Part shown: one piece after another, positions 6,355-43,778 of the stretch
Position numbering within the stretch: position 1 is the first letter of the stretch
Layout: every line of letters begins with the position of its first letter
Source of the DNA: Candidatus Omnitrophota bacterium
Lineage (GTDB): Bacteria; Omnitrophota; Gorgyraeia; Duberdicusellales; 4484-171
Direction of reading: 5' to 3'
Length of the DNA stretch: 64,000 bases
Assembly (NCBI GenBank): GCA_016935525.1
Contig: JAFGQU010000012.1
Location: 1,248-65,247 of the forward strand
The notes under the pieces: model-generated
Databases searched by the model: none
The model's input: the letters and a program-made list of their open reading frames with translations, nothing else
What the model was told of the DNA's origin: nothing
Translations under genes and position numbers: made by a program

Positions 6355-6360
6355 GAAGTA

Positions 6361-6482
6361 AAAATATCCAATGACCAATTTCCAAGCACCAAATAAGATC
6401 CAAGTTCCAATGACTGAAACGGATTTATTTGATTATTGATAATTTGGTGATTGGTTATTATTTGGTTATTGGGATGTGATGT
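6361..6482. repeat. ACCAATTTCCAAG / TTGGTTATTGG word-repeat module (family G)
   Basis: ccaatgaccaatttccaagcaccaaataag...ttggtgattggttattatttggttattggg; a second copy lies at 36176-36338; both sit immediately upstream of a gene start. Confidence 0.7.
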
Positions 6483-8250: not shown

Positions 8251-8484
8251 ATTCTGTGAAATCGTTTATTTTGTTTGTGAGTGTAACGGTTCTCCCGCAT
8301 CATAACATAGCTATATAGCGGGACCCCGTAATCACATGTCCCTATCCTTCCTTTAATAATATATTATATATTAATAACTCAATCTTCGCAGGCACGGGTA
8401 AGATATTATTCGTAAAACTACGAATTTATACTACAGGTAAACTAATTATAAAAAATTATTGCATTTAATGCGATATTTGTTAGA

Positions 8485-17122: not shown

Positions 17123-17127
17123 TTAGG

Positions 17128-17235
17128 TTCGACCCGTTCGCGCGTGCTCGCGTTCGCCCGTTCAAATAACGTTTAGAAGATAATATTGGATATTTGATGA
17201 AGAACGGGTAAAACGGGGTAACGGGAAAACGGAGG
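17128..17235. repeat. AACGGG word-repeat hairpin module (cccgttcgcgcgtgctcgcgttcgcccgttc ... gaacgggtaaaacggggtaacgggaaaacgg)
   Basis: Inverted CCCGTT/AACGGG word arrays; related modules at 35095-35135 and 55968-56060; all follow gene 3' ends. Confidence 0.65.
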
Positions 17236-17257
17236 TCCGATCTCACCATATATATCC

Positions 17258-19725: not shown

Positions 19726-19730
19726 AAAGT

Positions 19731-19814
19731 TGATGGTCTATAGTCCATAGTCGATAGTTACGGATATTGGGTGCAGGGTATCGGGTGCCGAACGACGAAC
19801 GACTAACGACGATG
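19731..19814. repeat. Composite intergenic repeat: CTAGTC-type words + GGGTGCAGGGTATCGGGTGCCG + AACGACG words
   Basis: ggtctatagtccatagtcgatagtta / gggtgcagggtatcgggtgccg / aacgacgaacgactaacgacg read directly; modules recur elsewhere. Confidence 0.7.
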
Positions 19815-19830
19815 TAAAAAAGGAAATACA

Positions 19831-22995: not shown

Positions 22996-23040
22996 TCGGG
23001 ATACCCAAAATATTTCCATCTCAATCTCTATTCTATCGGG

Positions 23041-23150
23041 AGCCGAGTACAGGGTTACAGGGCAGGGATAGGGTGCCGGGTTTCGGGTATCGGGTGGAGG
23101 GTGAAAACTATAGACCGTAGACCGACGACTAGCGACTATTTTTATCCGCT
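23041..23150. repeat. Composite intergenic repeat (GGGTGCCGGGTTTCGGGTATCGGGTGG words followed by CTATAGACCGTAGACCGACGACTAGCGAC words)
   Basis: Direct reading; shares words with 19769-19790 and, inverted, with 33017-33060. Confidence 0.7.
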
Positions 23151-24445: not shown

Positions 24446-24640
24446 CCAGTTTAATGTCACACGACACACCCGTGAGTCTCACGACAACGGGGCAAGCGCG
24501 TCATCCCGTGGAATTCGGAGAATTCCCGGGACTGAATCCCCGAAATTTATCAGTGATAAATTTCAGGGGGCATAGTCACACGTGAATAAAAACTCAAAAT
24601 CAAAAACGAACGACTCACGACGTACGACGAGCGACGGGAA
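24440..24640. repeat. Composite intergenic repeat: GTCACACG-family module plus ACGAC word array
   Basis: gtcacacgacacacccgtgagtctcacgacaacggggcaagcgcg ... catagtcacacgtg ... gaacgactcacgacgtacgacgagcgacgg. Confidence 0.65.
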
Positions 24641-24642
24641 GT

Positions 24643-26088
24643 ATGATTATAAAAAATAACAAAGAAGACTTTCTAAGTTACCTCGAAGATACCTCAAATA
24701 TCGAGGGCCATGCCGAATCGCTGTATATTCCTCACACGCAGGATGAACTTGTCACGCTGGTCGCCAGGTGTAACCAGGAAAAAATACCGCTTACCATTTC
24801 CGCGGGCCGTACCGGGACAACCGGAGGATGTGTCCCCCAAGAAGGGGTGCTGGTGAGTCTTGAAGAGTTTAACCGGATACTGTCTATCGATAAAGAACAT
24901 AAACGGGTATCGGTCCAGGCCGGTGTAGTGCTTGAAGACCTGGAACGGGAATTAAACCGTCACCGGCTTGCCTTAAGGGCGCAACCGACCGAATCGCTTG
25001 CGTGTGTGGGAGGCGCGGTATCCACAGCCGCCTCGGGAGTGCGAGGGTACCGTTGGGGAGGTATACGCAAGTACGTTGAACGGATCAAGATCTTATTCGT
25101 CGACGGCACGGTCTTTGATATCTGTCGCGGCGAGATTTTTGCTCATCAGGGAAAAATAACGGTCCCTTTAGGCGGCCGGACAAAAGAAATACGATTGCCT
25201 TCTTACCGTATGCCGCACACTAAAACTCAGGCCGGATATTTTGTCGCTCCCGACATGGACCTGATCGATCTTTTTATCGGGAGCGAAGGTACGTTGGGGA
25301 TTATTTTAGAAATAGAATTCAGCGTCCAGGAGTTAGCTGAAGAGATATTTGATTGTATCGTGTTTTTTAAAGAAGAGAAAGACGCGTTCCGGTTTGTGGA
25401 AACAATTAAAGAAAAAAAATCTAAAAAGGCTCTTAACCCGACCAGCCTTGAATTCCTCGATGCCCGGTCTTTGAGATTTTTAGGTGAAGAATACCCGCAG
25501 GCCGCCTCTTACGCTGCGGCGGTATATATCGAGCAGGAAGAATCCTCCCCGGTATCTTCGATAGCCGCCTGGATTGAGCTTATCGAATCATCCGGCGCGC
25601 TGCCGAATGAGACCTGGTTCGGCGACAGCATCCTTACCCGGAAAAAGATATTTGAGTTTCGGCATAAACTGCCGCAACGTATCAACGAATTTCTCAAAAC
25701 CCATCGTCAACGTAAGCTCTCGACCGACGTCGCGGTGCCGGAAGAAAGGTTTCTTGAGATGTACGGATTCTATGCAAAAGAAGGCGCTTCCAGCGGTATT
25801 GAATTCGTCAATTTCGGGCATATCGGCGAAAATCATCTCCATTTCAACTTTTTACCGCGTAACGATGACGAATATAGGAAAGCCAAAGAATATACTTCCA
25901 AGTTTATTAAAAAAGCCATAGAATTAGGCGGTACGGTTTCGGCGGAACACGGTATCGGGAAACTGAAAAAAGAGTCTCTCCTTTTGATGTACGGGGAAGA
26001 AGCGGTCGGCCAGATGCGGGTGTTAAAGGGGCAGTTCGATCCCAACTGGATATTGAACCGGGGCAACATCTTTGATTGCAAGGAATAG
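24643..26088 (+). CDS. FAD-binding oxidoreductase, FAD-linked oxidase (GlcD/D-lactate dehydrogenase-like) family
   Basis: PCMH-type FAD-binding domain (ISAGRTGTTGG, GSEGTLGIILEIEF) plus C-terminal oxidase domain. Confidence 0.75.
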   Translation: MIIKNNKEDFLSYLEDTSNIEGHAESLYIPHTQDELVTLVARCNQEKIPLTISAGRTGTTGGCVPQEGVLVSLEEFNRILSIDKEHKRVSVQAGVVLEDLERELNRHRLALRAQPTESLACVGGAVSTAASGVRGYRWGGIRKYVERIKILFVDGTVFDICRGEIFAHQGKITVPLGGRTKEIRLPSYRMPHTKTQAGYFVAPDMDLIDLFIGSEGTLGIILEIEFSVQELAEEIFDCIVFFKEEKDAFRFVETIKEKKSKKALNPTSLEFLDARSLRFLGEEYPQAASYAAAVYIEQEESSPVSSIAAWIELIESSGALPNETWFGDSILTRKKIFEFRHKLPQRINEFLKTHRQRKLSTDVAVPEERFLEMYGFYAKEGASSGIEFVNFGHIGENHLHFNFLPRNDDEYRKAKEYTSKFIKKAIELGGTVSAEHGIGKLKKESLLLMYGEEAVGQMRVLKGQFDPNWILNRGNIFDCKE

Positions 26089-26165
26089 TTTCTGGTCTCT
26101 AGTTTCTAGTCTCTGGTGTCTGGCCTTTTTACTGGTGACTAAAGACCAGCGACTAGCGACTAAAT
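26089..26165. repeat. CTAGTC/CTGGTC word-repeat hairpin
   Basis: tttctggtctctagtttctagtctctggtgtctgg ... aaagaccagcgactagcgactaaat. Confidence 0.7.
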
Positions 26166-26240
26166 AGGGGCTTGGAAATTTCTGCGGATATGATAATATA
26201 TACTTTAAAAGGCAAGCCATAAAAAAGAGGAGGTGTTGCT

Positions 26241-31886: not shown

Positions 31887-31990
31887 GGTCACACGACACA
31901 TCCCGCACCGATATTTACATATCTAGCGGGACCCCGCTGTATAAAAATATTACGGAGCGGGGCGTCACATAGTCACACGTAATTGCGTTT
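31885..31990. repeat. GTCACACG-family repeats flanking a TAGCGGGACCCCG hairpin
   Basis: gggtcacacgacacatcccgcac ... ctagcgggaccccgctgtataaaaatattacggagcggggcgtcacatagtcacacgt; the TAGCGGGACCCCG word also occurs at 8315-8330. Confidence 0.65.
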
Positions 31991-31995
31991 ACCCG

Positions 31996-32538
31996 TTGAG
32001 GGGAAGAAATAGAGTATATATGGAGATGGAAAGGGTACTGGAGACGCCGAAAAAGATCAATCAAGAGTTTCTCGTCGAACATCCCCGGTTTGTAACCCAA
32101 AAACTGGTAGTCCGGCCGGCCGAAATATTTCGCGGCCCGCGGTTAGTGTTAAACGGAGAAGTACAACCGGAAATAGAGGGGAAATTTACCGTCACCGACG
32201 ATATCGGGAAAGAAACCGTGGTACGGTTGCTTTATAATATCGTCGATCCGGTCCCTATTATCGAGATCGACGGTGATCAGATATCGCTGGTCAAACCATT
32301 CCTGTGGTATCAACGGGTATGGGTCGGGTTACCGTTATTATTGATCTTTGTCGGTAAACTGTTCGGCGCGTTGTTAGGTATCGTTGCCGTACTCGTGAAC
32401 ATCCGCGTGTTTCGTAGCGATAAACCGCTGATCATCAGGTACCTGCGTATCGCTTGGGTCAATATCATGATGGCGCTGGTGTATTTCGTCCTCGCCTCGA
32501 GTTTTATGATGTTTATCAATTTGCTGAGACTGAAGTGA
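31996..32538 (+). CDS. Hypothetical membrane protein (N-terminal soluble domain, two C-terminal TM helices)
   Basis: ORF with good coding periodicity; no recognisable domain. Confidence 0.4.
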   Translation: MRGRNRVYMEMERVLETPKKINQEFLVEHPRFVTQKLVVRPAEIFRGPRLVLNGEVQPEIEGKFTVTDDIGKETVVRLLYNIVDPVPIIEIDGDQISLVKPFLWYQRVWVGLPLLLIFVGKLFGALLGIVAVLVNIRVFRSDKPLIIRYLRIAWVNIMMALVYFVLASSFMMFINLLRLK

Positions 32539-32654
32539 ATCACGTCACACGACACACGTCACATAGTCACACGTCGAAAAATTCCAATATACAATAAACA
32601 AATTACAAAATAGGGTCTACTATTTAGGAGATGTGTTGACAAAATGAAGAGATT

Positions 32655-32892
32655 CCAACCACAGAGGACACCGAGGGCACGGAGTAAAAATGAGAGGTTT
32701 CAATGAGAAGATATTTGGTTTCTTCCCATCGATGTTCGATGGGGGTCTCTTTGCAAAAACGGGAGAAAACCGGCAAAATATTTTCCGGTTTTCTTCGTTT
32801 TTACAAAGAAATACGCTTTTATGGAATAAAAGCACGAAACCAAATATCTTCATCTCTTCTCTGTGGAACTCTGTGAGCTCTGTGGTTAAATC
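32655..32892. mobile_element. MITE-like element copy 1 (TIR ttCCAACCACAGAGG ... CTCTGTGGTTaaat; cargo unrelated to copies 2 and 3)
   Basis: Shares ~30-bp termini with the elements at 35851-36089 and 37287-37526; interior full of hairpins; no ORF of significance. Confidence 0.6.
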
Positions 32893-32927
32893 TTCCCGGA
32901 TGGTTAATCCCTAGTAAATTAGTAAAG

Positions 32928-33070
32928 ATTTACGTCACACGTTGCCCTTCGGGCTCGCGAAGATGAGCACAGATTGAGAAGACCACAGATGATTGCAGAT
33001 ATCCTCGTATCCCCCCACCCTGCACCCGATACCCTGTACCCGGCACCCGAGATAGTAGAAACTGGACAGG
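32928..33070. repeat. Composite repeat: GTCACACG words + conserved 80-bp module + inverted GGGTGCAGGGTATCGGGTGCCG family
   Basis: 32932-33015 is ~90% identical to 48160-48237 (gcccttcgggctcgcgaagatgagcacagattgagaagaccacagatgattgcagatatcctcgtatcccc). Confidence 0.75.
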
Positions 33071-33298
33071 GAAAAGTGGAAAGGGGACAGGGGATTTGGG
33101 TTGAAAGATAGAGAAAATGGGGGTATTATAAAAAATAAGTGAGGTATCTAGTATAGACTATATAGAATTTATATCTATGAGGTTCACCTTTATAGACATA
33201 GGTATAAAAAGTTGACAAATCCCCTCTAAATATGGTATATTTAAATTGGTCAGTTTAATTGACTGGTCTTTTAAATAGACTACAAATAGGAGATAAAA

Positions 33299-33577
33299 AT
33301 GGCACACCTAACTATTACTACAACCAGTAACGCGAAAGCAAAATTTATTTCTATGGTACGGAAGGTTCATGATTTAGGACAGGCTTACATGATCACCCAT
33401 AGGGGAGAAGATTCTGCTGTATTGTTAAGCCATGAAGATTATGAAGGCCTTTTAGAGACAATTGATATTTTAAAAAATAATAAGATTATTGCGGAAATCA
33501 TGCAATCTTTGAAAGATCTCGAAGAGGGGGTCATCCATTCCTTTGAGGAAGTTGTTGGCAGACAACAGAAAAAATGA
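33299..33577 (+). CDS. Type II antitoxin, Phd/YefM family
   Basis: YefM-like N-terminal motif (AKAKFISMVRKVHDLGQAYMITHRGEDSAVLLSHEDYEGLLET); 4-nt overlap with toxin gene. Confidence 0.8.
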   Translation: MAHLTITTTSNAKAKFISMVRKVHDLGQAYMITHRGEDSAVLLSHEDYEGLLETIDILKNNKIIAEIMQSLKDLEEGVIHSFEEVVGRQQKK

Positions 33578-33864
33578 ACCGACAGAACGTTTATAGCATT
33601 TCTTTTACCCGCACTTCTAAAAAACAATTTAATTTTCTCCCCGGCAAAATAAAGAAAGAAATTGCTAAAATCTTAGAAGAAGAGTTAGCGTATAATCCTC
33701 TTTTAGGAAAGCCGCTGCAAGGGCCATTGAAGGGATTGCGTTCTCAAAGAGTCGGAGTGCTGAGGATCATATATAAGATAGTGCAAGACGAATTGGTTAT
33801 AATAGTGATCAGTCTTGAGCATAGGAAAAGTGTATATCGTAGCCACAAATTGAAGAAGAAATAA
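33574..33864 (+). CDS. Type II toxin, RelE/ParE family
   Basis: 96 aa; RelE-fold motifs (YSISFTRTSKKQF, LRSQRVGVLRIIYKI); ATGA overlap with upstream antitoxin. Confidence 0.75.
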   Translation: MNRQNVYSISFTRTSKKQFNFLPGKIKKEIAKILEEELAYNPLLGKPLQGPLKGLRSQRVGVLRIIYKIVQDELVIIVISLEHRKSVYRSHKLKKK

Positions 33865-33971
33865 CTTCCCTTTGTGCTCTCCCGAAGTGTCGTTCCCTGA
33901 ATGGACCGTCGTTCGTCGACCGTCGCACGTGATTCGTCGTTAGTAAGCAGAAACGGGTAGAAAGAAAAAAT

Positions 33972-34688
33972 ATGGGAAATGATATTGTGAAAATCATAAT
34001 ATATTCTTTATTTTCCGGGATTACCATATTTCTCGGAGGATTACTGGCATTGCTATTTGAAAAAATGCCAAGATGGAATATGAGAGAGTACATAGTACAT
34101 ACTTCAATCGCTTTTGGCGGAGGAGTGTTGGTTGCCGCGGTTGCGTTTGTCCTTACCCCGCGTGGTATCGAACTGTTTGCGGTACAGAAATTCACGTTGA
34201 TATTTCTTGCCGGCTCGGTCACGTTTTTTCTTATCGACCGGGGTCTCGAACGAAAAGGCGGTGCCGTCGCTCAGGTATTGGCGATGATGATGGATTTCGT
34301 ACCGGAAGCGATCGCGTTAGGTGCGGTATTTGCGCACGATCATCGGACCGGATTACTGTTAGCGTTGTTTATCGGGTTACAGAATTTGCCGGAATCGTTT
34401 AACGCCTATTCAGACCTGCGAAGCAGCGGGTTCGGCCCGGTACGGATATTGTCGGCCTTTGTCCCGTTAAGTCTTACCGGTATCGCCGGCGCGTTGTTAG
34501 GGAACCGTTTCCTCATCGATAGGCCTCAACTTATTGCTGGGTTGATGTTGTTTTCTGCCGGGGGGATATTGTATCTTATCTTCCAGGATATCGCGCCGTT
34601 ATCGAAAGTGAGACGGCGCTGGGGTCCGGCTTTGGGGGCGACGATAGGATTTGTTATCGGGATGATCGGGACAAAAATGTTGGGATAA
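33972..34688 (+). CDS. ZIP family metal (Zn/Fe) transporter
   Basis: Eight-TM ZIP topology, conserved HD..H and GLQNLPE motifs (FAHDHRTG, GLQNLPESF). Confidence 0.75.
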   Translation: MGNDIVKIIIYSLFSGITIFLGGLLALLFEKMPRWNMREYIVHTSIAFGGGVLVAAVAFVLTPRGIELFAVQKFTLIFLAGSVTFFLIDRGLERKGGAVAQVLAMMMDFVPEAIALGAVFAHDHRTGLLLALFIGLQNLPESFNAYSDLRSSGFGPVRILSAFVPLSLTGIAGALLGNRFLIDRPQLIAGLMLFSAGGILYLIFQDIAPLSKVRRRWGPALGATIGFVIGMIGTKMLG

Positions 34689-34691
34689 ATA

Positions 34692-34768
34692 AGAACGTAA
34701 CGCGGGACGCGACACGCGTAACGCGTGGAAATCCCTCCGGGCAGTTAATTCCTAGTAAATTTGTAAAG
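34692..34768. repeat. ACGTAACGCGG word repeat + TAATYCCTAGTAAATTWGTAAAG module
   Basis: aacgtaacgcgggacgcgacacgcgtaacgcgtgg ... ttaattcctagtaaatttgtaaag; related copies at 43522-43560 and 32905-32930. Confidence 0.65.
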
Positions 34769-34815
34769 TTCCATAAAAACCCGTTCTCGTTGAAAAGAAC
34801 GGGCAGATTGTGTTC

Positions 34816-34911
34816 TGGCGGAGAGGGTGGGATTTGAACCCACGGTCCCACTTTAGGGCGGGACTTCCGATTTCGAATCGGACCCATTCAACCGGGCTCT
34901 GGCACCTCTCC
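34816..34911 (-). tRNA. tRNA-Ser (anticodon CGA), long variable arm
   Basis: Reverse complement reads GGAGAGGTGCCAGAGCCCGGTTGAATGGGTCCGATTCGAAATCGG...GTGGGTTCAAATCCCACCCTCTCCGCCA; encoded CCA; hairpin terminator downstream at 34775-34800. Confidence 0.85.
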
Positions 34912-35286
34912 GATACATAGCGGATAGCTGTTAGCGGATAGAACGATTTATATGAAAAAATTCTCTTCTCGTCTAATCTCTAGCCGTTTGCCGTTATACG
35001 CTGGATTTCTGATAAGTTTACCGTGAACCGATGATTCCGTCAAGGTGGCCCTTAATAACCAGATCACACCTCGTAGGTGTGATCTTTGAGGTTTTTTAAC
35101 GACGGGCTGAACGGGCAAACGGGATAACTTGATAATCCGTCAAGATTGAGGATTCGAAAGGTTTTTAGACTCACGACGTACGACTTTCTGTTTTTTCTTG
35201 CTACTTACTATCGGATAATTTCTGGTCTACGGACTATCGAATGTGGTCTCTGGTCTTTCGTCTCACCGCTATCCGCTCACCGCTAT

Positions 35287-35715: not shown

Positions 35716-35850
35716 ATAGATCTTATTTTAACAAATTACCGGCAATTTTCAATTTTTTGATATAAAAAATATCTATGCCATTCATAGATCTATTGATAAT
35801 TATAGGGTTTTTTGTATTATTCCAGAAGATGCGTCCATAGAACGGATGGC

Positions 35851-36089
35851 TTTTCAACCACGGAGGACACAGAGAGCACAGAGAGGAATTGAGGGTATCC
35901 TCAATATTTGAGAAAATCTGTAATACTCAAACGCTCATTGAGCGTTTTGGGTCAGGGAGCGCAGGGCGCGTAAATAAAAAGGATTTTTTATTTCGCTGCC
36001 TGCGCTCCCTGAATGTTCCTGCGAGAGATATCTCGCAGGGTAATTACAGATTTTTTGCTCCGTGAACTCCGTGAGCTCTGTGGTTAAAT
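35851..36089. mobile_element. MITE-like element copy 2 (TIR ttCAACCACGGAGG ... CTCTGTGGTTaaat; internal 118-bp module in orientation A)
   Basis: Near-identical termini to copy 3; interior = three hairpins bounded by 12-bp inverted repeats AAAATCTGTAAT/ATTACAGATTTT. Confidence 0.75.
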
Positions 36090-36175
36090 ATCTTTCTGTG
36101 TAAAAAGGCCTTTTCGATTATACAAAATATCATAGTTGTCAAAGGGTACCGGAAACGGTATAATTAACCTTAATA

Positions 36176-36339: not shown

Positions 36340-37182
36340 ATGGGACAAATAGCGAACGGACAATCGGTAAAGCTGTACTTAGACCTCTTGAAAAAGACCC
36401 TTACCTTTACGTTATGGCCGGAACCGCCTCTGCCGGTTGAAATATTCAGTTATAAATATCCGGTACCGACCAGGATATTCTTTAAGATCCTTTCGGCACT
36501 ATGCCGGGTAGGGAAAATGCGGTTAGTGAAAGACCGCAGGTTCGCGTCCGGCGAACGGGAACAGGGACGGGTCTGGCCGGGATATGCCGATACGATGATC
36601 GGTCTTGCCCGGCTTGATAATATCCAGGAATGCGCTGAAACCGTGATCAAAGAGAACGTGCCCGGCGATCTTATCGAAACCGGGGTATGGCGCGGCGGTG
36701 CCTGTATCTTTATGCGGGCAGTCCTTGCTGCCTACGGTATTGTCGGCCGGAAAGTGTATGTATGTGATTCGTTTGAAGGGTTGCCGAAACCGGATGAGGA
36801 GAAATATCCCGCCGATAAAGGCGATACGCATCATGTCCATCAGTTTATCGCGGTATCGCAGGAGGAAGTTGAACATAATTTCCGGAAATACGGGTTACTT
36901 GACGAACAGGTCGTGTTTCTTAAAGGATGGTTTAAAGATACGTTACCGGCCGCGCCGATCGAGAAGATCGCCCTTATGAGGTTAGACGGCGATATGTATT
37001 CATCGACTATCGACGCGTTACAGAACCTGTACCCGAAACTGTCGCCGGGCGGGTTCTGTATTATCGACGATTACGCGTTGAAAGGATGTAAACAGGCTGT
37101 TGACGATTATCGTCGTGACCACGGTATTGCCGCGCCGATCCGCACCGTCGATTGGACCGGAGTATACTGGCGAAAAGAATAG
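36340..37182 (+). CDS. Class I SAM-dependent O-methyltransferase, TylF/MycF (macrocin O-methyltransferase) family
   Basis: TylF-family motifs (GDLIETGVWRGGACIFMRAVLAAY, VCDSFEGLP, GWFKDTLP, MRLDGDMYSST); flanked by MITE-like copies. Confidence 0.7.
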   Translation: MGQIANGQSVKLYLDLLKKTLTFTLWPEPPLPVEIFSYKYPVPTRIFFKILSALCRVGKMRLVKDRRFASGEREQGRVWPGYADTMIGLARLDNIQECAETVIKENVPGDLIETGVWRGGACIFMRAVLAAYGIVGRKVYVCDSFEGLPKPDEEKYPADKGDTHHVHQFIAVSQEEVEHNFRKYGLLDEQVVFLKGWFKDTLPAAPIEKIALMRLDGDMYSSTIDALQNLYPKLSPGGFCIIDDYALKGCKQAVDDYRRDHGIAAPIRTVDWTGVYWRKE

Positions 37183-37286
37183 CGTAGCCGGCGTTTCCCT
37201 GCCTATTTGTCTTATCTAGAGACTATGTTATAATTGACCCATTATGAATCGTATTGTTTAGAAGATGTGTTTGCAGGGTGAAGGTA

Positions 37287-37526
37287 TTTCAACCACGGAG
37301 GACACAGAGAGCACAGAGAGGAATTGAGGGTATTCTCAATATTTGAGAAAATCTGTAATCATCCTGCGAGAAGCATCTCGCAGAAACGTTCAGGGAGCGC
37401 AGGCGGCAAAATAAAATATTCCTTTTATTTACGCGCTCTGCGCTTCCTGACCCAAAACGCTCAATGAGCGTTTGAGTATTACAGATTTTTTTTGCTCTGT
37501 GAACTCCGTGAGCTCTGTGGTTAAAT
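37287..37526. mobile_element. MITE-like element copy 3 (same termini as copy 2; internal 118-bp module inverted, orientation B)
   Basis: Reverse complement of copy-2 interior aligns at ~88% to copy-3 interior while the flanks stay co-linear. Confidence 0.75.
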
Positions 37527-37542
37527 TTCTTGAATTATACAT

Positions 37543-39319: not shown

Positions 39320-39392
39320 GGGCCGTTAGCTCAATTGGCGGAGCAGGGGCCTCTTAAGCCCAAGGTTGCTGGTTCGATTCCAGCACGGCCCA
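39320..39392 (+). tRNA. tRNA-Lys (anticodon CTT)
   Basis: GGGCCGTTAGCTCAATTGGCGGAGCAGGGGCCTCTTAAGCCCAAGGTTGCTGGTTCGATTCCAGCACGGCCCA; cloverleaf verified by hand. Confidence 0.9.
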
Positions 39393-39398
39393 CGTACC

Positions 39399-39483
39399 GC
39401 GCGGGTGGCGGAACTGGCAGACGCGCTAGATTCAGGTTCTAGTGGGTAACTCCGTGGGGGTTCAAATCCCCCCTCGCGCACCA
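39399..39483 (+). tRNA. tRNA-Leu (anticodon CAG), long variable arm, encoded CCA
   Basis: GCGCGGGTGGCGGAACTGGCAGACGCGCTAGATTCAGGTTCTAGTGGGTAACTCCGTGGGGGTTCAAATCCCCCCTCGCGCACCA. Confidence 0.9.
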
Positions 39484-39484
39484 T

Positions 39485-39565
39485 TTATAGTCGATAGGAT
39501 ATAGTCTCTAGTCGCTGGTCTTTAGTCTCCAGTAAAAAAGACCAGAAACCAGAGACTGAAGACTG
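39485..39565. repeat. CTAGTC/CTGGTC word-repeat hairpin (tagtctctagtcgctggtctttagtctccagt-aaaaaa-gaccagaaaccagagactgaagactg)
   Basis: Direct reading; could also act as the terminator of the tRNA cluster. Confidence 0.7.
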
Positions 39566-39571
39566 CTTGCC

Positions 39572-39994
39572 ATGCATAAATTCGAGATCATCGAACATGC
39601 CGCGGATGTAGGATTAAGAGTATACGGCAAGGACTATAAAGAGTTGTTTTTAAACGCGGCCTGGGGAGCATGCGCGCTCCTGGTCGATGATTTGCCTTCC
39701 GAGAGAGATACCCGTCCGGTCGAACTTACCGCCTCGACAATCGAAGACCTGCTTGTCGATTGGCTGAACGAACTGGTTTCGTTATTTTACGCGGAAAAGT
39801 TTTTACCGAAAGATATCGAAATACAGATCCATCAGGAAGAGTCGAGCTGTGAACTTGTTGCCGAACTTATCGGCGGACAATATGATCCGTATACACAAAA
39901 AGTGAATATGGAGGTAAAAGCCGCAACCCACCATAAACTGCATATCGAACAAAAAGAAGAATATCTCGAAACGCAGATAATTTTTGATGTCTAA
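39572..39994 (+). CDS. Archease (RtcB activator)
   Basis: MHKFEIIEHAADVGLRVYG N-terminal archease signature; paired with rtcB. Confidence 0.8.
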   Translation: MHKFEIIEHAADVGLRVYGKDYKELFLNAAWGACALLVDDLPSERDTRPVELTASTIEDLLVDWLNELVSLFYAEKFLPKDIEIQIHQEESSCELVAELIGGQYDPYTQKVNMEVKAATHHKLHIEQKEEYLETQIIFDV

Positions 39995-39999
39995 CGTCA

Positions 40000-40135
40000 C
40001 GTCACATAGACACATAGTCACAAGGTCACACGTGTCTAAAAAAACAGAATATCAATTTGTCTGGATTCTTTCGTGTGACGTGTGTCGTGCTTGCCCCGTT
40101 GCGTAAACTCAAGGGGTGACTGTGTGACTTGGAAG
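40000..40135. repeat. GTCACACG-family composite repeat (includes gcttgccccgttgcg, the inverse of cgcaacggggcaagc at 48141-48155)
   Basis: gtcacgtcacatagacacatagtcacaaggtcacacgtg ... gtgtgacgtgtgtcgtgcttgccccgttgcg ... ggggtgactgtgtgac. Confidence 0.7.
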
Positions 40136-40140
40136 CATTT

Positions 40141-41589
40141 ATGAGTATCCCACTCGAAAAATTAACCGAGTATAAGTACCGTATCCCTAAAAGTTATAAA
40201 GCGGGGATGCGGGTCGACGGTATTGTCTATATCGATGAGAAGATGTTGCCGTCACTCGTTGATGATAACGCGTTAGATCAGGTCGCGCATGTCGCGTTCC
40301 TTCCCGGTATTGTGAAATATTCGTTGGCAATGCCCGATATCCATTGGGGATACGGGTTTTGTATCGGCGGAGTTGCCGCGACCGATATCGCCCAAGGCGG
40401 GGTGATATCACCGGGCGGGGTCGGGTTTGATATTAATTGCGGTGTAAGGCTCTTACGTACGGATCTTGATGTTTCCGACCTGAGCGGAAAAATAGAAAAA
40501 ATAGTGAACAACCTTTATCATCATGTCCCTTCCGGAGTCGGGTCAAAAGGCGAGGTAAAGGTGTCCCGGCAGGAACAGAAACGGTTGATGATCAACGGCG
40601 CTCAATGGGCCGTATCTCGCGGGTTCGGTACGCCGGACGACCTGGAATATTGCGAAGAAAACGGCGCGATGGAAGGCGCTGACCCCGATACCGTATCCGA
40701 CCGGGCGTATGAACGAGGGAAACAACAGGCCGGGACATTGGGAAGCGGGAACCATTTTCTTGAAGTACAACGGGTTGAAGAGATATTCGATATTGACGCG
40801 GCAGGAGTATTAGGGGTCTGGCCTGGACAGATAATGGTAATGGTCCATACCGGGTCACGCGGGTTCGGATATCAGATCTGTGATGAATACGTACGGCTCA
40901 TGCGGAACTGTCTTACCAAATATAAAATAGAAGTACCGGACCGGCAACTTGCCTGCGCGCCGGTAAATAGCCCGGAAGGGAAACAGTATCTTGGCGCGAT
41001 GCGCGCTGCGGCAAATTATGCCTGGGCAAATCGGCAGGTGATCACTCATCTGGTACGGGAAAGTTTTGAAAAAGTGTTTTCAAAAAGCTGGCAGACGATG
41101 GGGATGGACCTTGTGTATGATGTCGCGCATAATGTCGCGAAAATAGAGACTCATACCGTAGACGGTGAGAAAAAGAAATTATGTGTCCATCGTAAAGGCG
41201 CGACCCGTTCGTTCGGCCCGAACAACAGCGATATCCCTTCGAAATATCAGGGTATCGGTCAGCCGGTGATCATTCCCGGAGATATGGGCCGGGCGTCGTA
41301 TCTGTTGGTCGGGACCGCTCATGCGGAAGAAGAGACGTTCGGTACGACCTGTCATGGCGCCGGCCGGTTGAAATCACGGCATGAAGCGTTGAAGACTATC
41401 AGGTTCGATCAGTTGATGAAAGAGTTGAAAGAAAAAGGGATCGAAGTCCGGGCGACCGGGAAAAAGACGATCGTGGAAGAAGCGCCGCAGGCGTATAAAG
41501 ATGTGAACGATGTGGTCGATATCGTCCATCGTGCCGGCCTGTCTAAACGGGTGTGCCGGATGAAACCTCTTTGCGTGGTGAAAGGATAA
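40141..41589 (+). CDS. rtcB: RNA-splicing ligase RtcB (3'-phosphate/5'-OH RNA ligase)
   Basis: Conserved metal- and GTP-binding motifs (GGVGFDINCGVRLL, HNVAKIE, HAEEETFGTTCHGAGR). Confidence 0.9.
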   Translation: MSIPLEKLTEYKYRIPKSYKAGMRVDGIVYIDEKMLPSLVDDNALDQVAHVAFLPGIVKYSLAMPDIHWGYGFCIGGVAATDIAQGGVISPGGVGFDINCGVRLLRTDLDVSDLSGKIEKIVNNLYHHVPSGVGSKGEVKVSRQEQKRLMINGAQWAVSRGFGTPDDLEYCEENGAMEGADPDTVSDRAYERGKQQAGTLGSGNHFLEVQRVEEIFDIDAAGVLGVWPGQIMVMVHTGSRGFGYQICDEYVRLMRNCLTKYKIEVPDRQLACAPVNSPEGKQYLGAMRAAANYAWANRQVITHLVRESFEKVFSKSWQTMGMDLVYDVAHNVAKIETHTVDGEKKKLCVHRKGATRSFGPNNSDIPSKYQGIGQPVIIPGDMGRASYLLVGTAHAEEETFGTTCHGAGRLKSRHEALKTIRFDQLMKELKEKGIEVRATGKKTIVEEAPQAYKDVNDVVDIVHRAGLSKRVCRMKPLCVVKG

Positions 41590-41684
41590 TGCACGTCACA
41601 TGTCACACGACACACGTCATACGTAGGAGCGTGGAGAAATGCGGGTTTGCTATTAGGAAAATTATATAATATAATTGTTTAAAT

Positions 41685-42956
41685 ATGTTGGACGCGAAGT
41701 TTATAAGACAGAATCCGGATGTCGTGCGCGAGGCGCTTAAAAAGCGGAACGATCGTTACGATCTTGACGCGTTTTGCGAGTTAGACGAGAAACGCCGGCT
41801 GATTTTGGCGAAGGTCGAGGAGATAAATGCCGCCCAGAACCGGATCGATCAGGAAATACAATCGTTGATCAAAACAAAAAAAGATCCCAAACCGAAGATA
41901 GAGGAAGGGAAAAAGCTTAAAACCGATCTTGTCCGGATCAACGGCGAATACGCCCGCCTTAACGAACAGTTTAAAACTGAACTTTTAAAAATACCGAATA
42001 TCCCGCACGAGTCTCTCCCGGTAGGCGACGCCTCGCACAATAAGGTCGTCCGGGAAGGCGGTACGAAAAAAGAATTTAAATTCGCTCCGCGTGACCATAT
42101 CGAGTTAGCCGAGGCCCTCGATATCATCGATTTCAAACGCGCGGCAAAACTTTCCGGTTCGAATTTCGTGTTATTTAAAGGCGACGGCGCGCGGTTAGTC
42201 CGGGCGTTGATCAATTTCATGCTGGATATCCATACCGACGAACACGGGTATAAAGAGATCGTCCCCCCGGTTATCGTGAACCGCGATTCGATGACCGCGA
42301 CCGGCCAGTTGCCGAAATTGGAAGAGGATATGTATGTGACCAAAGAGGATGGCCTGTTTCTGATCCCGACCGCGGAAGTCCCGCTCACCAATATCCATCG
42401 TAACGATGTGTTGGAGTATGATGAGTTACCGATACAATATACCGCCTATACACCCTGTTTTCGCCGGGAAGCCGGTTCTTACGGGAAAGATACCCGGGGC
42501 CTTATGCGGGTACATCAGTTCGATAAAGTGGAACTGGTAAAGTTCGTCAAGCCCGATACTTCATATGACGAACTTGAAAAACTGTTGGCACATGCGATAA
42601 AGATCATTGAATTGTTGGGGATACCGTACCGGGTATTGTTGCTCGCAAGTGGTGATATCAGTTTTGCCGCGGCAAAATGTTATGATATCGAGATCTATGC
42701 GCCCGGCCTTGACCGGTGGCTGGAAGTATCGAGTTGTTCGAATTTCGAAGATTTCCAGGCCCGCCGCGGGAATATCCGGTATAAAGACCCCGATATGGGA
42801 AAGATGCAGTTTGTCCATACGTTAAACGGGTCGGGCGTGGCTCTGGCGCGGCTGATCGTCGCGATACTTGAGAATTATCAAAACGAAGACGGTTCGATAG
42901 AAATACCCGAACCGTTAAGGAGGTATATGAATGGCAAAGTACGAATCGAGAAGTAA
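41685..42956 (+). CDS. serS: Serine--tRNA ligase
   Basis: N-terminal coiled-coil tRNA-binding arm plus class II aaRS motifs (FRREAGSYGKDTRGLMRVHQF, GSGVALARL). Confidence 0.9.
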   Translation: MLDAKFIRQNPDVVREALKKRNDRYDLDAFCELDEKRRLILAKVEEINAAQNRIDQEIQSLIKTKKDPKPKIEEGKKLKTDLVRINGEYARLNEQFKTELLKIPNIPHESLPVGDASHNKVVREGGTKKEFKFAPRDHIELAEALDIIDFKRAAKLSGSNFVLFKGDGARLVRALINFMLDIHTDEHGYKEIVPPVIVNRDSMTATGQLPKLEEDMYVTKEDGLFLIPTAEVPLTNIHRNDVLEYDELPIQYTAYTPCFRREAGSYGKDTRGLMRVHQFDKVELVKFVKPDTSYDELEKLLAHAIKIIELLGIPYRVLLLASGDISFAAAKCYDIEIYAPGLDRWLEVSSCSNFEDFQARRGNIRYKDPDMGKMQFVHTLNGSGVALARLIVAILENYQNEDGSIEIPEPLRRYMNGKVRIEK

Positions 42957-43518
42957 TTATCTGATCACGCTGGCGAAATTCGTTTTCTTTCTCATCTTTT
43001 TCTGTTTTATGGTAAAACTTACCGGGAACCTGCTTTCGGATATGCAGTCGATCGCTACGTTGAGCCTGAAAGTGTTCTATGTCTCCATATTCTCGGCGCT
43101 CATGTTTTACCTGTTTATCGCCGATCTGAACACTATTTACGACCATATCCAGAACTTTTTTTTCCGTCATTCGTTCGTAAACCTTATCTTACCTTCGGTA
43201 CTGGTGCTTCTGGCGCTGGGATATTTTATTATTCCCAAGATATGGAGCTTATCGTTCGATAAAGATACGTTTGTATTTTTAGGCGGGTTTATCCTGATGA
43301 TCCATCTTATCTATATCGCGCAACAGACTCGCGAGGGGAGTTTCGTGGGATTTGTGAACTATCTGTTCATGTTCAGTACATTATATGTGGTCAGTATCTT
43401 CTTGTTCGCGGTCTATCTACGGGTCGCGTTCCCGCTTAATATCGGTGACCTTATCGTCCACAGTTTTAACGATAGTACCCGCCTGGTCGTGGATCTGTAT
43501 AAGCAGATCGTGCATTAA
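42931..43518 (+). CDS. Hypothetical integral membrane protein
   Basis: Five or six TM helices; no recognisable domain. Confidence 0.4.
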   Translation: MAKYESRSNYLITLAKFVFFLIFFCFMVKLTGNLLSDMQSIATLSLKVFYVSIFSALMFYLFIADLNTIYDHIQNFFFRHSFVNLILPSVLVLLALGYFIIPKIWSLSFDKDTFVFLGGFILMIHLIYIAQQTREGSFVGFVNYLFMFSTLYVVSIFLFAVYLRVAFPLNIGDLIVHSFNDSTRLVVDLYKQIVH

Positions 43519-43521
43519 GGA

Positions 43522-43700
43522 AGACGTAACGCGGAATGCGACACGCGTAACGCGTGAGGGGAATACCGAATGTACACTTCCGAAGTGTACAAAGGGGGTA
43601 GCGGTGAGCGGTTAGGAATAGTCGATAGTGTATAGTTTTCCCCCCTCCACCCGATACCCTATCATTATTCGCCACACGACACATAGTCTCACGTTAAAAA
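43522..43700. repeat. Composite repeat: ACGTAACGCGG words, GTACAC palindrome, CCACCCGATACCCT words, GTCACACG words
   Basis: acgtaacgcggaatgcgacacgcgtaacgcgtgagg ... gtacacttccgaagtgtac ... cccctccacccgataccctatcattattcgccacacgacacatagtctcacg. Confidence 0.65.
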
Positions 43701-43778
43701 GTACAAAAATAAAACGAAAACCTCCGGCAGCTTCGTGAGTTGCCGGAGGTCTATTATATCTGTAATAGAGATACTTTA

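What the first reader, a model, noticed from the sequence alone, without database searches (positions are those of the whole stretch)
32932..33015. A conserved ~80-bp module is present twice, 15 kb apart (32932-33015 and 48160-48237), as a candidate small RNA or mobile module
The sequence gcccttcgGgctcgcgAagatgAgcacagattgagaagaccacagatgatTgcagaTatcctcgtatcccc recurs at 48160-48237 with only ~7 substitutions. In both copies it is preceded by GTCACACG words and followed by the CCACCCGATACCCT word family. It contains a stem-loop (cttcgggctcgcgaag) in which one substitution between the copies lies in the loop. The 22-mer cacgtcgaaaaattccaatata (32570-32591) also recurs exactly at 48261-48282. Such conserved length and sequence, against a background of otherwise degenerate word repeats, suggests a functional unit: an sRNA, a protein-binding site or a mobile module.
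Basis: seen in the sequence. Interest (0 to 1): 0.6.

Follow-up and report, generated by a model that had tools for sequence, protein, structure and literature searches.

The report
Two-copy intergenic mosaic repeat, not sRNA
The 83-base sequence really does occur twice in this uncultured Omnitrophota genome, but it looks like a recently copied piece of the short-word repeat DNA that fills the gaps between genes here, not a small RNA gene or a regulatory unit.

Summary
The repeat is real: 32932-33014 and 48156-48238, 83 nt, 77/83 identical, far beyond chance. An independent assembly of the same run spans copy 1. The functional reading is not supported.

- **Structure:** neither strand folds better than shuffled sequence. 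The two copies give different best folds, and no pair shows a compensatory change.
- **Other signals:** there is no Rfam match, no promoter or terminator framing the module, and no conserved ORF.
- **Composition:** the centre of the module (GCACAGAT..CCACAGATGATTGCAGAT) is itself a CACAGAT word array. Related Omnitrophota carry such arrays next to tRNA genes.
- **Mosaic setting:** the module sits in a patchwork of short units that recur in different orders and with different divergence: GTCACAC words, a GTTAATC..TAAATT piece, CACCC words and a 24-mer.
- **Nearest relative (SerS 82% identical):** the tRNA-Ser promoter beside copy 2 is conserved, 39 nt at 90%. The module is absent.
- **Mobility:** no integrase or transposase lies in the window, and housekeeping genes lie between the copies.

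Best reading: a young duplication of BIME/STRR-like intergenic repeat DNA, probably by recombination or gene conversion through the flanking word arrays. Interest is low. The genome-wide paired word arrays are the more notable feature.

The parts
32932..33014 (+). Module copy 1 (83 nt). It consists of the end of a GTCACACG word run, a GC-rich piece TTGCCCTTCGGGCTCGCGAAGATGA, a CACAGAT word cluster GCACAGATTGAGAAGACCACAGATGATTGCAGATATCC, and TCGTATCCCC.
   Evidence: It is spanned by the independent Logan contig L135.
48156..48238 (+). Module copy 2 (83 nt, 6 substitutions relative to copy 1). It lies between the divergent 1344-aa ORF (- strand) and the tRNA-Ser(tga) promoter.
32896..32931 (+). 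Upstream piece 'C' of copy 1 (CCCGGATGGTTAATCCCTAGTAAATTAGTAAAGATTT). It is homologous to 48053-48078 and, at 92%, to 34744-34768.
48053..48078 (+). Upstream piece 'C' of copy 2 (CCCGCATTGTTAATCGGTTATAAATT), about 73% identical to the copy 1 piece.
48079..48155 (+). Extra segment present only in copy 2. It holds GTCACA words and the hairpin element CCCCGTGAGCTTCGCAACGGGG. That element recurs at 40078-40131 (- strand, 92.6% over 54 nt) and in looser form near 24460.
   Evidence: (I10).
33015..33104 (+). CACCC/TACCC heptamer word array (33015-33050) and its loosely complementary GGG-word arm (33066-33100), downstream of copy 1.
   Evidence: (I6, I9, I21).
32539..32591 (+). GTCACAC heptamer array directly after the stop codon of ORF 31996-32538, followed by the exact 24-mer CACACGTCGAAAAATTCCAATATA (units A1-B).
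48239..48285 (+). Right flank of copy 2: a short CACCC word, TATCATTGTTCG, a CACACG word and the 24-mer (units E-A1-B). This is the same unit order as at 43637-43714.
43637..43714 (+). A third instance of the E-A1-B mosaic (CCACCCGATACCCTATCATTATTCGCCACACG...TTAAAAAGTACAAAAATAAAAC), without the module.
   Evidence: (D8).
34744..34768 (+). A third copy of piece 'C' (GTTAATTCCTAGTAAATTTGTAAAG), not followed by the module.
32622..32892 (+). MITE-like element with CACAGAG / CTCTGTG word-array ends. It sits in the first intergenic region between units A1-B and C. Relatives lie at about 35845-36094 and 37280-37531.
   Evidence: (D2, D3, I1).
48326..48364 (+). Context only: the tRNA-Ser promoter (TTGACG-17-TAAACT). 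It is conserved with the other tRNA-Ser gene (35014-35044, - strand) and with relative L137, and serves as a positive control for detectable conservation.

Best explanation
The 83-nt 'module' is a young, two-copy segment of non-coding mosaic repeat DNA. It is not a gene for a structured RNA and not a dedicated regulatory site.

In this Omnitrophota genome the gaps between genes are built from arrays of 7-10-nt 'words'. Families include GTCACAC, CACCCGA/TACCCTG, GACTAGA, AACGGGT and CCAATNN. They are often paired with the complementary array, giving long imperfect hairpins. A few short non-array pieces lie among them. These units recur in different combinations and orders.

The module is one such stretch: a short GC-rich piece followed by a CACAGAT word cluster. 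It is bounded on the left by GTCACACG words and on the right by CACCC words.

The step I infer rather than show is how it was copied. The most likely route is homologous or microhomology-driven recombination, or gene conversion, primed by the word arrays that flank it at both loci. The arrays then expanded or contracted, which would account for the extra 75-85 nt in copy 2.

Any function would be the generic one of the word-array landscape, such as transcript 3'-end or DNA-structure elements. That function is itself unproven and is not specific to this 83-mer.
For: **Shown**
- The repeat is real and non-random, and copy 1 was assembled independently.
- Intergenic DNA here is dominated by period-7/8/9 arrays. 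TRF finds 27 merged arrays in 64 kb, 4.2 per 10 kb, many directly after stop codons.
- Paired arrays fold well: window 26086-26166 has z -4.1. In related contigs, L084 990-1102 has z -10.6 and L096 9878-9962 has z -4.1.
- The centre of the module is a CAGAT word cluster, and the only two such clusters in the window are the two copies.
- Relatives carry CACAGATGAT arrays around tRNA-Lys, including a 17-nt exact match ACAGATGATTGCAGATG-type stretch at L084 5086-5102. One also has a CACAGAT/ATCTGTG hairpin upstream of tRNA-Ser(tga) in L096.
- The layout is mosaic. The first intergenic region reads A1-B-MITE-C-A2-D-E, the second reads C-A2-D-E-A1-B, and 43637-43714 reads E-A1-B. A lone C lies at 34744. 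The units differ in divergence: D 93%, C 73% or 92%, B 100%.
- Identity drops sharply exactly where the word arrays begin on both sides.
- The module's 93% identity is typical of the other dispersed repeats in the window.
- There is no sign of RNA structure, covariation, an Rfam family, a promoter-terminator frame or a conserved ORF.
- The two copies sit differently relative to transcription units. Copy 1 is 394 nt downstream of a + strand gene and upstream of the phd/parE promoter. Copy 2 lies between divergent promoters.
- In the closest relative found (SerS 82% identical), the tRNA-Ser promoter is conserved (39 nt, 90%) but the module is absent.

**Inferred:** the recombination or gene-conversion mechanism.
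Against: - Only two copies and one genome could be examined.
- The 27-nt identical core and the higher identity of D compared with its upstream piece C (93% against 73%) could reflect selection rather than youth.
- With two sequences and 6 substitutions, the covariation test has almost no power.
- Absence from a relative at about 82% SerS identity does not exclude a species-specific function.
- The gene next to copy 2 (1344 aa) and the one next to copy 1 (180 aa) have no homologues, so orthologous intergenic regions could be compared only for the tRNA-Ser side of copy 2.
- The promoter scan covers sigma-70-type sites only.
Confidence: 0.6

Rival explanations
1. The unit C-A2-D-E (about 115-200 nt), or the 83-mer within it, is a small non-autonomous mobile element (MITE- or REP-like). 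It would be mobilised in trans and insert into or next to word arrays.
For: - The homology boundaries are sharp.
- The order of units in the two intergenic regions looks circularly permuted.
- A genuine MITE-like family lives in the same regions (D2, D3, I1).
- Both copies adjoin lineage-specific genes: the phd/parE toxin-antitoxin pair and a 1344-aa ORFan. In relatives the tRNA-Ser locus holds different genes.
- The Logan assembly breaks 3 nt before copy 2, which is consistent with further repeated sequence in the sample.
Against: - No terminal inverted repeats or target-site duplications are visible at the boundaries.
- Only two copies occur in 64 kb.
- None of the window ORFs checked is a transposase, integrase or RAYT.
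- The Logan contig runs through copy 1 without a break, so no near-identical extra copy of copy 1 is likely. This step is an inference from how k-mer assemblers behave.
- The exact core has no hit in the GTDB genomes, JGI metagenomes or IMG/VR. A blastn search with copy 1 and its flanks (32896-33050) finds nothing in plasmids or phages.
Confidence: 0.2
2. The module is a binding site or array of sites for a DNA- or RNA-binding protein. Candidates are the CACAGAT..CACAGATGAT..GCAGAT direct words. It would act on neighbouring genes or on chromosome structure.
For: - The module contains three CAGAT-type words within 32 nt, and the 27-nt core is identical between copies.
- Heptamer direct repeats have been proposed as regulator binding sites in other bacteria (PMC4679880).
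Against: - The neighbouring genes are unrelated (phd/parE versus tRNA-Ser and an ORFan), and the module sits differently relative to their promoters.
- The relative that keeps the tRNA-Ser promoter lacks the module.
- There are only two sites in 64 kb.
Confidence: 0.08
3. The module encodes a small regulatory RNA, in two paralogous copies.
For: Its length (about 80 nt), its intergenic position and its 93% identity with an invariant 27-nt core fit the general profile. Unstructured, seed-type sRNAs do exist (general knowledge).
Against: - The module folds no better than shuffled sequence on either strand, and the two copies fold differently.
- No pair shows a compensatory change, and one substitution breaks the proposed stem.
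- There is no Rfam hit.
- No promoter-like site lies upstream and no terminator-like site lies downstream in either copy.
- The nearest relative does not conserve it.
Confidence: 0.07
4. Copy 2 is an assembly or binning artefact: a mis-joined fragment or a strain variant of copy 1 placed at the wrong locus.
For: The stretch 48154-48491 is not covered by any Logan contig I could retrieve. It is bounded by repeated sequence, the hairpin element on one side and a tRNA on the other.
Against: - The copies differ at 6 sites, and the flanks differ on both sides.
- The unit order around copy 2 cannot be derived from the first intergenic region by simple variation.
- Even if the fragment were misplaced, the sequence would still exist a second time in the sample.
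Confidence: 0.03

Closest known systems
BIMEs / REP-associated mosaic elements of enterobacteria and pseudomonads
   Same: Both are intergenic, non-coding and lie mostly at gene 3' ends. Both are built from a small set of short units that recur in different combinations and orders. Many units can form imperfect hairpins.
   Different: The units here are arrays of degenerate 7-10-nt words, not 35-nt REP palindromes. The 83-mer itself is not palindromic. No RAYT transposase was seen in the window. There is no sequence similarity to any plasmid or phage record.
Short tandemly repeated heptamers: cyanobacterial STRR, and the TAACTGA direct repeats of Beggiatoaceae, Cyanobacteria and Bacteroidetes (MacGregor 2015, PMC4679880)
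   Same: Both are tandem 7-nt words confined to intergenic DNA, with a strand bias. GTCACA occurs 19 times on the + strand and twice on the - strand in intergenic DNA. Their function is unknown and their distribution across lineages is patchy.
   Different: This genome has many different word families rather than one. The words are degenerate at 1-3 positions. Arrays are often paired with their complement to form long hairpins, and they lie mainly just after stop codons, not just upstream of start codons. The 83-mer is only partly periodic: its CAGAT cores are spaced 16 and 10 nt apart.
MITEs
   Same: The module is a short non-coding sequence present in more than one intergenic site. A real MITE-like family with word-array inverted ends lies 40 nt upstream of copy 1.
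   Different: The module has no terminal inverted repeats and no target-site duplication, and only two copies are known.
Bacterial trans-acting sRNA genes
   Same: The size and the intergenic position are similar.
   Different: There is no own promoter or terminator, no stable or shared fold, no covariation, no Rfam family and no conservation in the nearest relative.

Membership tests
Structured small RNA (any Rfam family) | A match to a curated covariance model. | tested here: not met
   Nothing but five tRNAs reaches gathering score in the window. E-value scans of both intergenic regions, up to E = 5, give no hit overlapping either copy.
Structured small RNA (new family) | A fold more stable than shuffled sequence and shared by the copies, with compensatory substitutions. 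| tested here: not met
   Fold z-scores are +1.03 and -0.11 on the + strand, and +0.88 and +0.32 on the - strand, with different best folds in the two copies. No compensatory pair is seen, 0 of 16 and 0 of 23. The power of this test is very low with two sequences.
sRNA gene | Its own promoter upstream and a terminator downstream. | tested here: not met
   The sigma-70 and intrinsic-terminator scans find none that frame either copy. The sites found belong to phd/parE, the tRNA-Ser gene and the MITE-like element. Other promoter types are not covered.
sRNA gene | A discrete transcript. | not testable with these tools
   No expression data are available.
MITE | Terminal inverted repeats. | tested here: not met
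   No inverted repeat is reported at the boundaries of the 83-mer or of the longer C-to-E unit.
MITE | Target-site duplications, and many copies with both empty and filled sites. | tested here: inconclusive
   No flanking duplication is visible. Only two copies occur in 64 kb.
REP / BIME | Mosaic combinations of a few short intergenic units. | tested here: met
   Units A1, B, C, D and E recur in different orders at 32539-33050, 48053-48285, 43637-43714 and 34744-34768.
REP / BIME | The unit is an imperfect palindrome (REP hairpin). | tested here: not met
   The 83-mer has no excess fold stability. Neighbouring paired word arrays do, with z from -1.9 to -4.1 in the window.
REP / BIME | An associated RAYT (IS200/IS605-type Y1 transposase) in the genome. 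| tested here: inconclusive
   None appears among the window ORFs scanned against Pfam and NCBIfam. The rest of the genome was not available.
STRR / heptamer direct repeats | Tandem head-to-tail copies of a 7-nt word in intergenic DNA. | tested here: inconclusive
   This is met for the flanks: period-7 arrays at 32541-32575, and period 14 (two alternating heptamers) at 33016-33048. The 83-mer itself is not called by TRF, and only irregularly spaced CAGAT words are present.
att sites of an integrated island or prophage | Direct repeats flanking an integrase-bearing accessory segment, one of them overlapping a tRNA gene. | tested here: not met
   The 15 kb between the copies holds SmpB, SerS, RtcB, archease and three tRNA genes, and no integrase. 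Copy 2 ends 193 nt upstream of tRNA-Ser and does not overlap it.
Small protein gene | An ORF with a start codon and conserved product in both copies. | tested here: not met
   Frame +0 is open, and 3 of the 6 substitutions are synonymous in it. However, the only start codons give peptides of 41 and 30 aa whose C-terminal halves are unrelated.

The most novel reading that the evidence does not exclude
The 83-mer is the specific, non-array core of a previously undescribed kind of dispersed element in Omnitrophota. In this reading, a unit bounded by degenerate word arrays is copied between intergenic regions by machinery that recognises those arrays. Alternatively, it yields an unstructured regulatory RNA. 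The genome-wide paired word arrays would then be the footprints of that system.
Probability: 0.12. Interest if true: 0.55.

Novelty: new member of a known kind. Interest (0 to 1): 0.2.

Why it matters
The module on its own matters little. It is one more dispersed intergenic repeat in a repeat-rich genome, and treating it as an sRNA candidate would be a false lead.

The setting may be worth attention. An uncultured Omnitrophota lineage has intergenic DNA largely built from many families of degenerate 7-10-nt words. These are often arranged as complementary arrays that fold into long hairpins with periodic mismatches. I found no paper describing this in the library searched. If these arrays have a role, such as transcript 3' ends, genome structure or recombination hotspots, the two-copy module is a small example of how they reshuffle intergenic DNA.

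Tried and rejected
**Searches for further copies, all negative**
- Exact core scans of GTDB species genomes, JGI metagenomes and IMG/VR gave 0 hits.
- blastn against plasmids and phages gave no match.

**Searches for related loci**
- The search for related loci with the neighbouring histidine kinase on genome contigs returned only paralogues at 40% identity or less.
- Look-ups meant to extend beyond the window or reach the NCBI contig returned only short Logan contigs or nothing.
- Homologue searches with the two genes nearest the copies, the 1344-aa and 180-aa ORFs, found only the proteins themselves. Orthologous intergenic regions were therefore unavailable on those sides.

**Readings tested and rejected**
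- Rfam, at gathering score and at permissive E-values, gave no hit on the module. The miRNA-like hits at 32745-32813 are the hairpin of the MITE-like element and are chance-level.
- A coding reading is rejected because the C-termini are not conserved.
- An att-site or genomic-island reading is rejected because housekeeping genes and no integrase lie between the copies.
- A sigma-54 promoter in GGCACCCTATCATTGT was checked by eye. The spacing is 2 nt too long, so I rejected it on the sequence alone.
- 'Half of a word hairpin' finds no support: the window has no complementary ATCTG-word cluster anywhere.
- nhmmer of the module against 1.6 Mb of fetched loci gave only weak hits (E 0.0015-0.006), and these turned out to be CAGATGAT word arrays.

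Full report
**Observation**

The two stretches are there as described. The repeat finder gives one 83-nt direct repeat, 32932-33014 versus 48156-48238, at 93% identity and 15,224 nt apart. A direct comparison shows 6 substitutions, at module positions 4, 21, 29, 35, 63 and 69. Three sub-patterns of the module each match only these two places at up to 3 mismatches, and shuffled sequence gives none.

A gapped alignment shows that similarity continues upstream (CCCGsATkGTTAATC..TAAATT), at about 73% identity. In copy 2 it is interrupted by roughly 75-85 extra bases made of GTCACA words plus a small hairpin element.

**Is it an artefact?**

The organism is an uncultured 'Candidatus Omnitrophica bacterium' MAG. 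The protein next to copy 2 carries locus tag JXD21_03535 and lies on a 117-kb contig. Logan contigs assembled independently from the same run, SRR13394437, match the window exactly.

- L135 equals window 32758-34843 and spans copy 1 with both flanks.
- Around copy 2 the Logan contigs stop at 48153 and resume at 48492, so that 338-nt stretch rests on the MAG alone.

The copies differ at six sites and have different flanks. A copy-paste artefact is therefore excluded. A misplacement of copy 2 is unlikely but was not tested.

**Setting**

The window is ordinary chromosome, with nearly all genes on the + strand. They include the Rnf complex, enolase, B12-dependent ribonucleotide reductase, an RND efflux pump, SmpB, archease, RtcB, SerS, methionine and thiamine synthesis genes, NifS and five tRNAs. 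No transposase, integrase or RAYT was found.

- Copy 1 lies in a 760-nt gap between a 180-aa ORF and a phd/parE toxin-antitoxin pair. It is upstream of that pair's strong promoter at 33212-33241.
- Copy 2 lies between a divergently transcribed 1344-aa ORFan and the promoter of tRNA-Ser(tga) at 48329-48357.

The two copies therefore have no common position relative to transcription units.

**The background is the key**

Printing all intergenic regions and running TRF shows that they are largely made of arrays of degenerate 7-10-nt words. Families include GTCACAC, CACCCGA/TACCCTG, GACTAGA/GACCAGA, AACGGGT, ACGACGA, CCAATNN and GAAATAC. There are 27 merged arrays in 64 kb, many starting right after a stop codon.

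Arrays often face their complement across a short spacer and then fold well. Window 26086-26166 has z -4.1, 17123-17236 has z -1.9 and 6372-6475 has z -2.0. GTCACA is strongly intergenic and strand-biased: 19 of its 26 + strand occurrences fall in the 11% of the window that is intergenic, against 2 on the other strand.

**Anatomy of the module**

Read against that background, the 83-mer has four parts:
- the last GTCACACG word;
- a GC-rich piece, TTGCCCTTCGGGCTCGCGAAGATGA;
- a cluster of CAGAT words, GCACAGAT-TGAGAAGAC-CACAGATGAT-TGCAGATATC;
- the piece TCGTATCCCC, which runs into the CACCC array.

The two copies are the only CAGAT-word clusters in the window, and no complementary ATCTG cluster exists.

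The surrounding pieces form a mosaic. The first intergenic region reads A1 (GTCACAC array), B (24-mer), MITE-like element, C, A2, D (module), E (CACCC array). The second reads C, A2 (expanded), D, E, A1, B. The stretch 43637-43714 reads E, A1, B-like, and a lone C sits at 34744-34768. The units differ in divergence: D 93%, C 73% or 92%, B 100% and the hairpin element 92.6%. Different units therefore have different histories. The module's identity is typical of the window's other dispersed repeats, such as the MITE-like ends at 95%.

**Tests of the sRNA idea**

- Neither strand of either copy folds better than dinucleotide shuffles (z +1.03, -0.11, +0.88, +0.32), and the best folds differ between copies.
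- Larger contexts are also unremarkable, with z -0.3 and -1.2.
- RNAalifold finds no pair with a compensatory change on either strand.
- Rfam gives nothing at the module, even at E up to 5.
- No promoter-like site precedes either copy and no terminator-like site follows it.
- One reading frame stays open through both copies, with 3 of 6 changes synonymous. The only possible starts give 41- and 30-aa peptides with unrelated C-terminal halves, so I do not regard it as coding.

**Comparative evidence**

The exact core is absent from GTDB species genomes, JGI metagenomes and IMG/VR. A blastn search with copy 1 and its flanks (32896-33050) finds nothing in plasmids or phages.

Using SerS as a handle, I fetched 51 metagenome loci from related Omnitrophota (SerS 43-82% identical over the best-matching segment; the full-length matches reach at most 70%). 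They share the tRNA-Lys / archease / RtcB / SerS / tRNA-Ser synteny. None contains the module. The best nhmmer hits (E 0.0015-0.006) are CAGATGAT word arrays:
- In L084, CACAGATGAT arrays flank tRNA-Lys and include a 17-nt identity to the module.
- In L096, a GATTACACAGAT / ATCTGTG array hairpin followed by a T-run sits between the 194-aa ORF and tRNA-Ser(tga). That is the same neighbourhood as copy 2 (fold z -4.1).

Paired word arrays are thus a feature of the lineage. L084 990-1102, just after a tRNA-Arg, has z -10.6.

The closest relative found is L137, a Logan contig from SRR22808021 with SerS 82% identical. It has a radical-SAM gene where this genome has the ORFan. It keeps the tRNA-Ser promoter (39 nt, 90%) but nothing resembling the module. 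That promoter is also shared with the window's other tRNA-Ser gene. It serves as a positive control: functional non-coding sequence is detectable at this evolutionary distance.

**Explanation**

I conclude, with confidence of about 0.6, that the module is a recent two-copy duplication of mosaic word-array intergenic DNA and not an independent functional unit. The following points are shown:
- the repeat is real;
- its centre is made of words;
- the layout is mosaic;
- identity drops sharply where the arrays begin;
- RNA-gene signatures are absent;
- the nearest relative does not conserve it.

The copying mechanism is inferred. I favour recombination or gene conversion primed by the GTCACAC and CACCC arrays that flank both copies, with later expansion or contraction of the arrays.

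The rivals are a small mobile element (0.2), a protein-binding site (0.08), an unstructured sRNA (0.07) and a mis-join (0.03).

**Comparison with known systems**

The module behaves like the mosaic intergenic repeats of enterobacteria (BIMEs) in its modular recombination. Its word arrays resemble cyanobacterial STRR and the TAACTGA heptamer repeats described by MacGregor 2015 (PMC4679880). It is not a member of any of those families by sequence. The 83-mer also fails the palindrome criterion for REP and the terminal-repeat criterion for MITEs. A search of the paper library for Omnitrophota intergenic repeats found nothing relevant.

**Limits**

Only 64 kb of one genome and two copies were available, so the covariation and copy-number tests are weak. 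No expression data exist. The promoter scan covers only sigma-70-type sites.

**Verdict**

Interest is low (0.2). The more notable feature is the lineage-wide system of paired degenerate word arrays, recorded under things noticed in passing.

Noticed in passing
window 6355-6482, 17123-17236, 19726-19830, 22996-23150, 24446-24642, 26086-26166, 33865-33971, 34689-34730, 39483-39571, 39995-40128, 41590-41630, 43519-43700, 54913-55011, 55967-56066: Intergenic DNA is largely built from arrays of degenerate 7-10-nt words belonging to many families. Arrays often start right after a stop codon and often face the complementary array, giving long hairpins with periodic mismatches (z -4.1 at 26086-26166). 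GTCACA words are strongly intergenic and strand-biased, 19 against 2. I found no description of this for Omnitrophota in the paper library.
   Followed up: partly
L084 990-1102 and 5085-5490; L096 3950-3985, 5429-5500, 6158-6196, 7741-7975, 9878-9962; L097 1906-2004; L113 1525-2059: Related Omnitrophota contigs (SerS 52-70% identical) carry the same kind of paired word arrays, but with different word families in each genome. They typically flank tRNA genes or follow ORFs. L084 990-1102, after tRNA-Arg, folds with z -10.6. The architecture seems conserved while the words are not.
   Followed up: partly
window 35845-36094 and 37280-37531 (also 32622-32892): Two copies of a MITE-like element of about 250 nt, in direct orientation, bracket a TylF-type O-methyltransferase gene (36340-37182). 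Their ends match directly at 95%. The internal 142 nt matches better in inverted orientation (89%) than in direct orientation (70%), which suggests an inversion between short internal inverted repeats. The element's ends are themselves CACAGAG / CTCTGTG word arrays.
   Followed up: partly
window 48326-48364 (+), 35014-35044 (-); L137 4594-4631: A conserved promoter, CTTGACGGAATC..GTTcACGrTAAACTT, precedes both tRNA-Ser genes of the window. It also precedes tRNA-Ser(tga) of the nearest relative, at 39 nt and 90% identity.
   Followed up: yes
window 43779-47813 (-): A 1344-aa ORF lies on the strand opposite to almost all its neighbours. It has no Pfam domain and no homologue other than itself in a 5.8-billion-protein search. 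GC skew turns negative across it. Relatives have other genes at this spot between the 195-aa ORF and tRNA-Ser: a radical-SAM gene in L137 and a 91-aa ORF in L096. The locus looks like an insertion hotspot.
   Followed up: partly
window 24452-24505 (+), 40065-40131 (-), 48114-48166 (+); also 31887-31980 and 8293-8328: A small hairpin element, CCCCGTGAGCTTCGCAACGGGG flanked by GTCACAC words, occurs three times. Two of the copies are 92.6% identical over 54 nt. A second hairpin type, TCCCGCA...TAGCGGGACCCCG, occurs twice (D14, I10).
   Followed up: no
window 24543, 31926, 32758, 34843, 39454, 48153, 48492: Every end of the Logan contigs from the same run falls inside a repeated element or a tRNA gene. 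This suggests that these elements have further near-identical copies in the sample.
   Followed up: no
window 39320-43518; L084-L096, L130, L137: The gene order tRNA-Lys(ctt) / archease / RtcB / SerS / small ORF / tRNA-Ser is conserved across these Omnitrophota. The anticodon of the downstream tRNA-Ser varies: tga, gct or gga.
   Followed up: no
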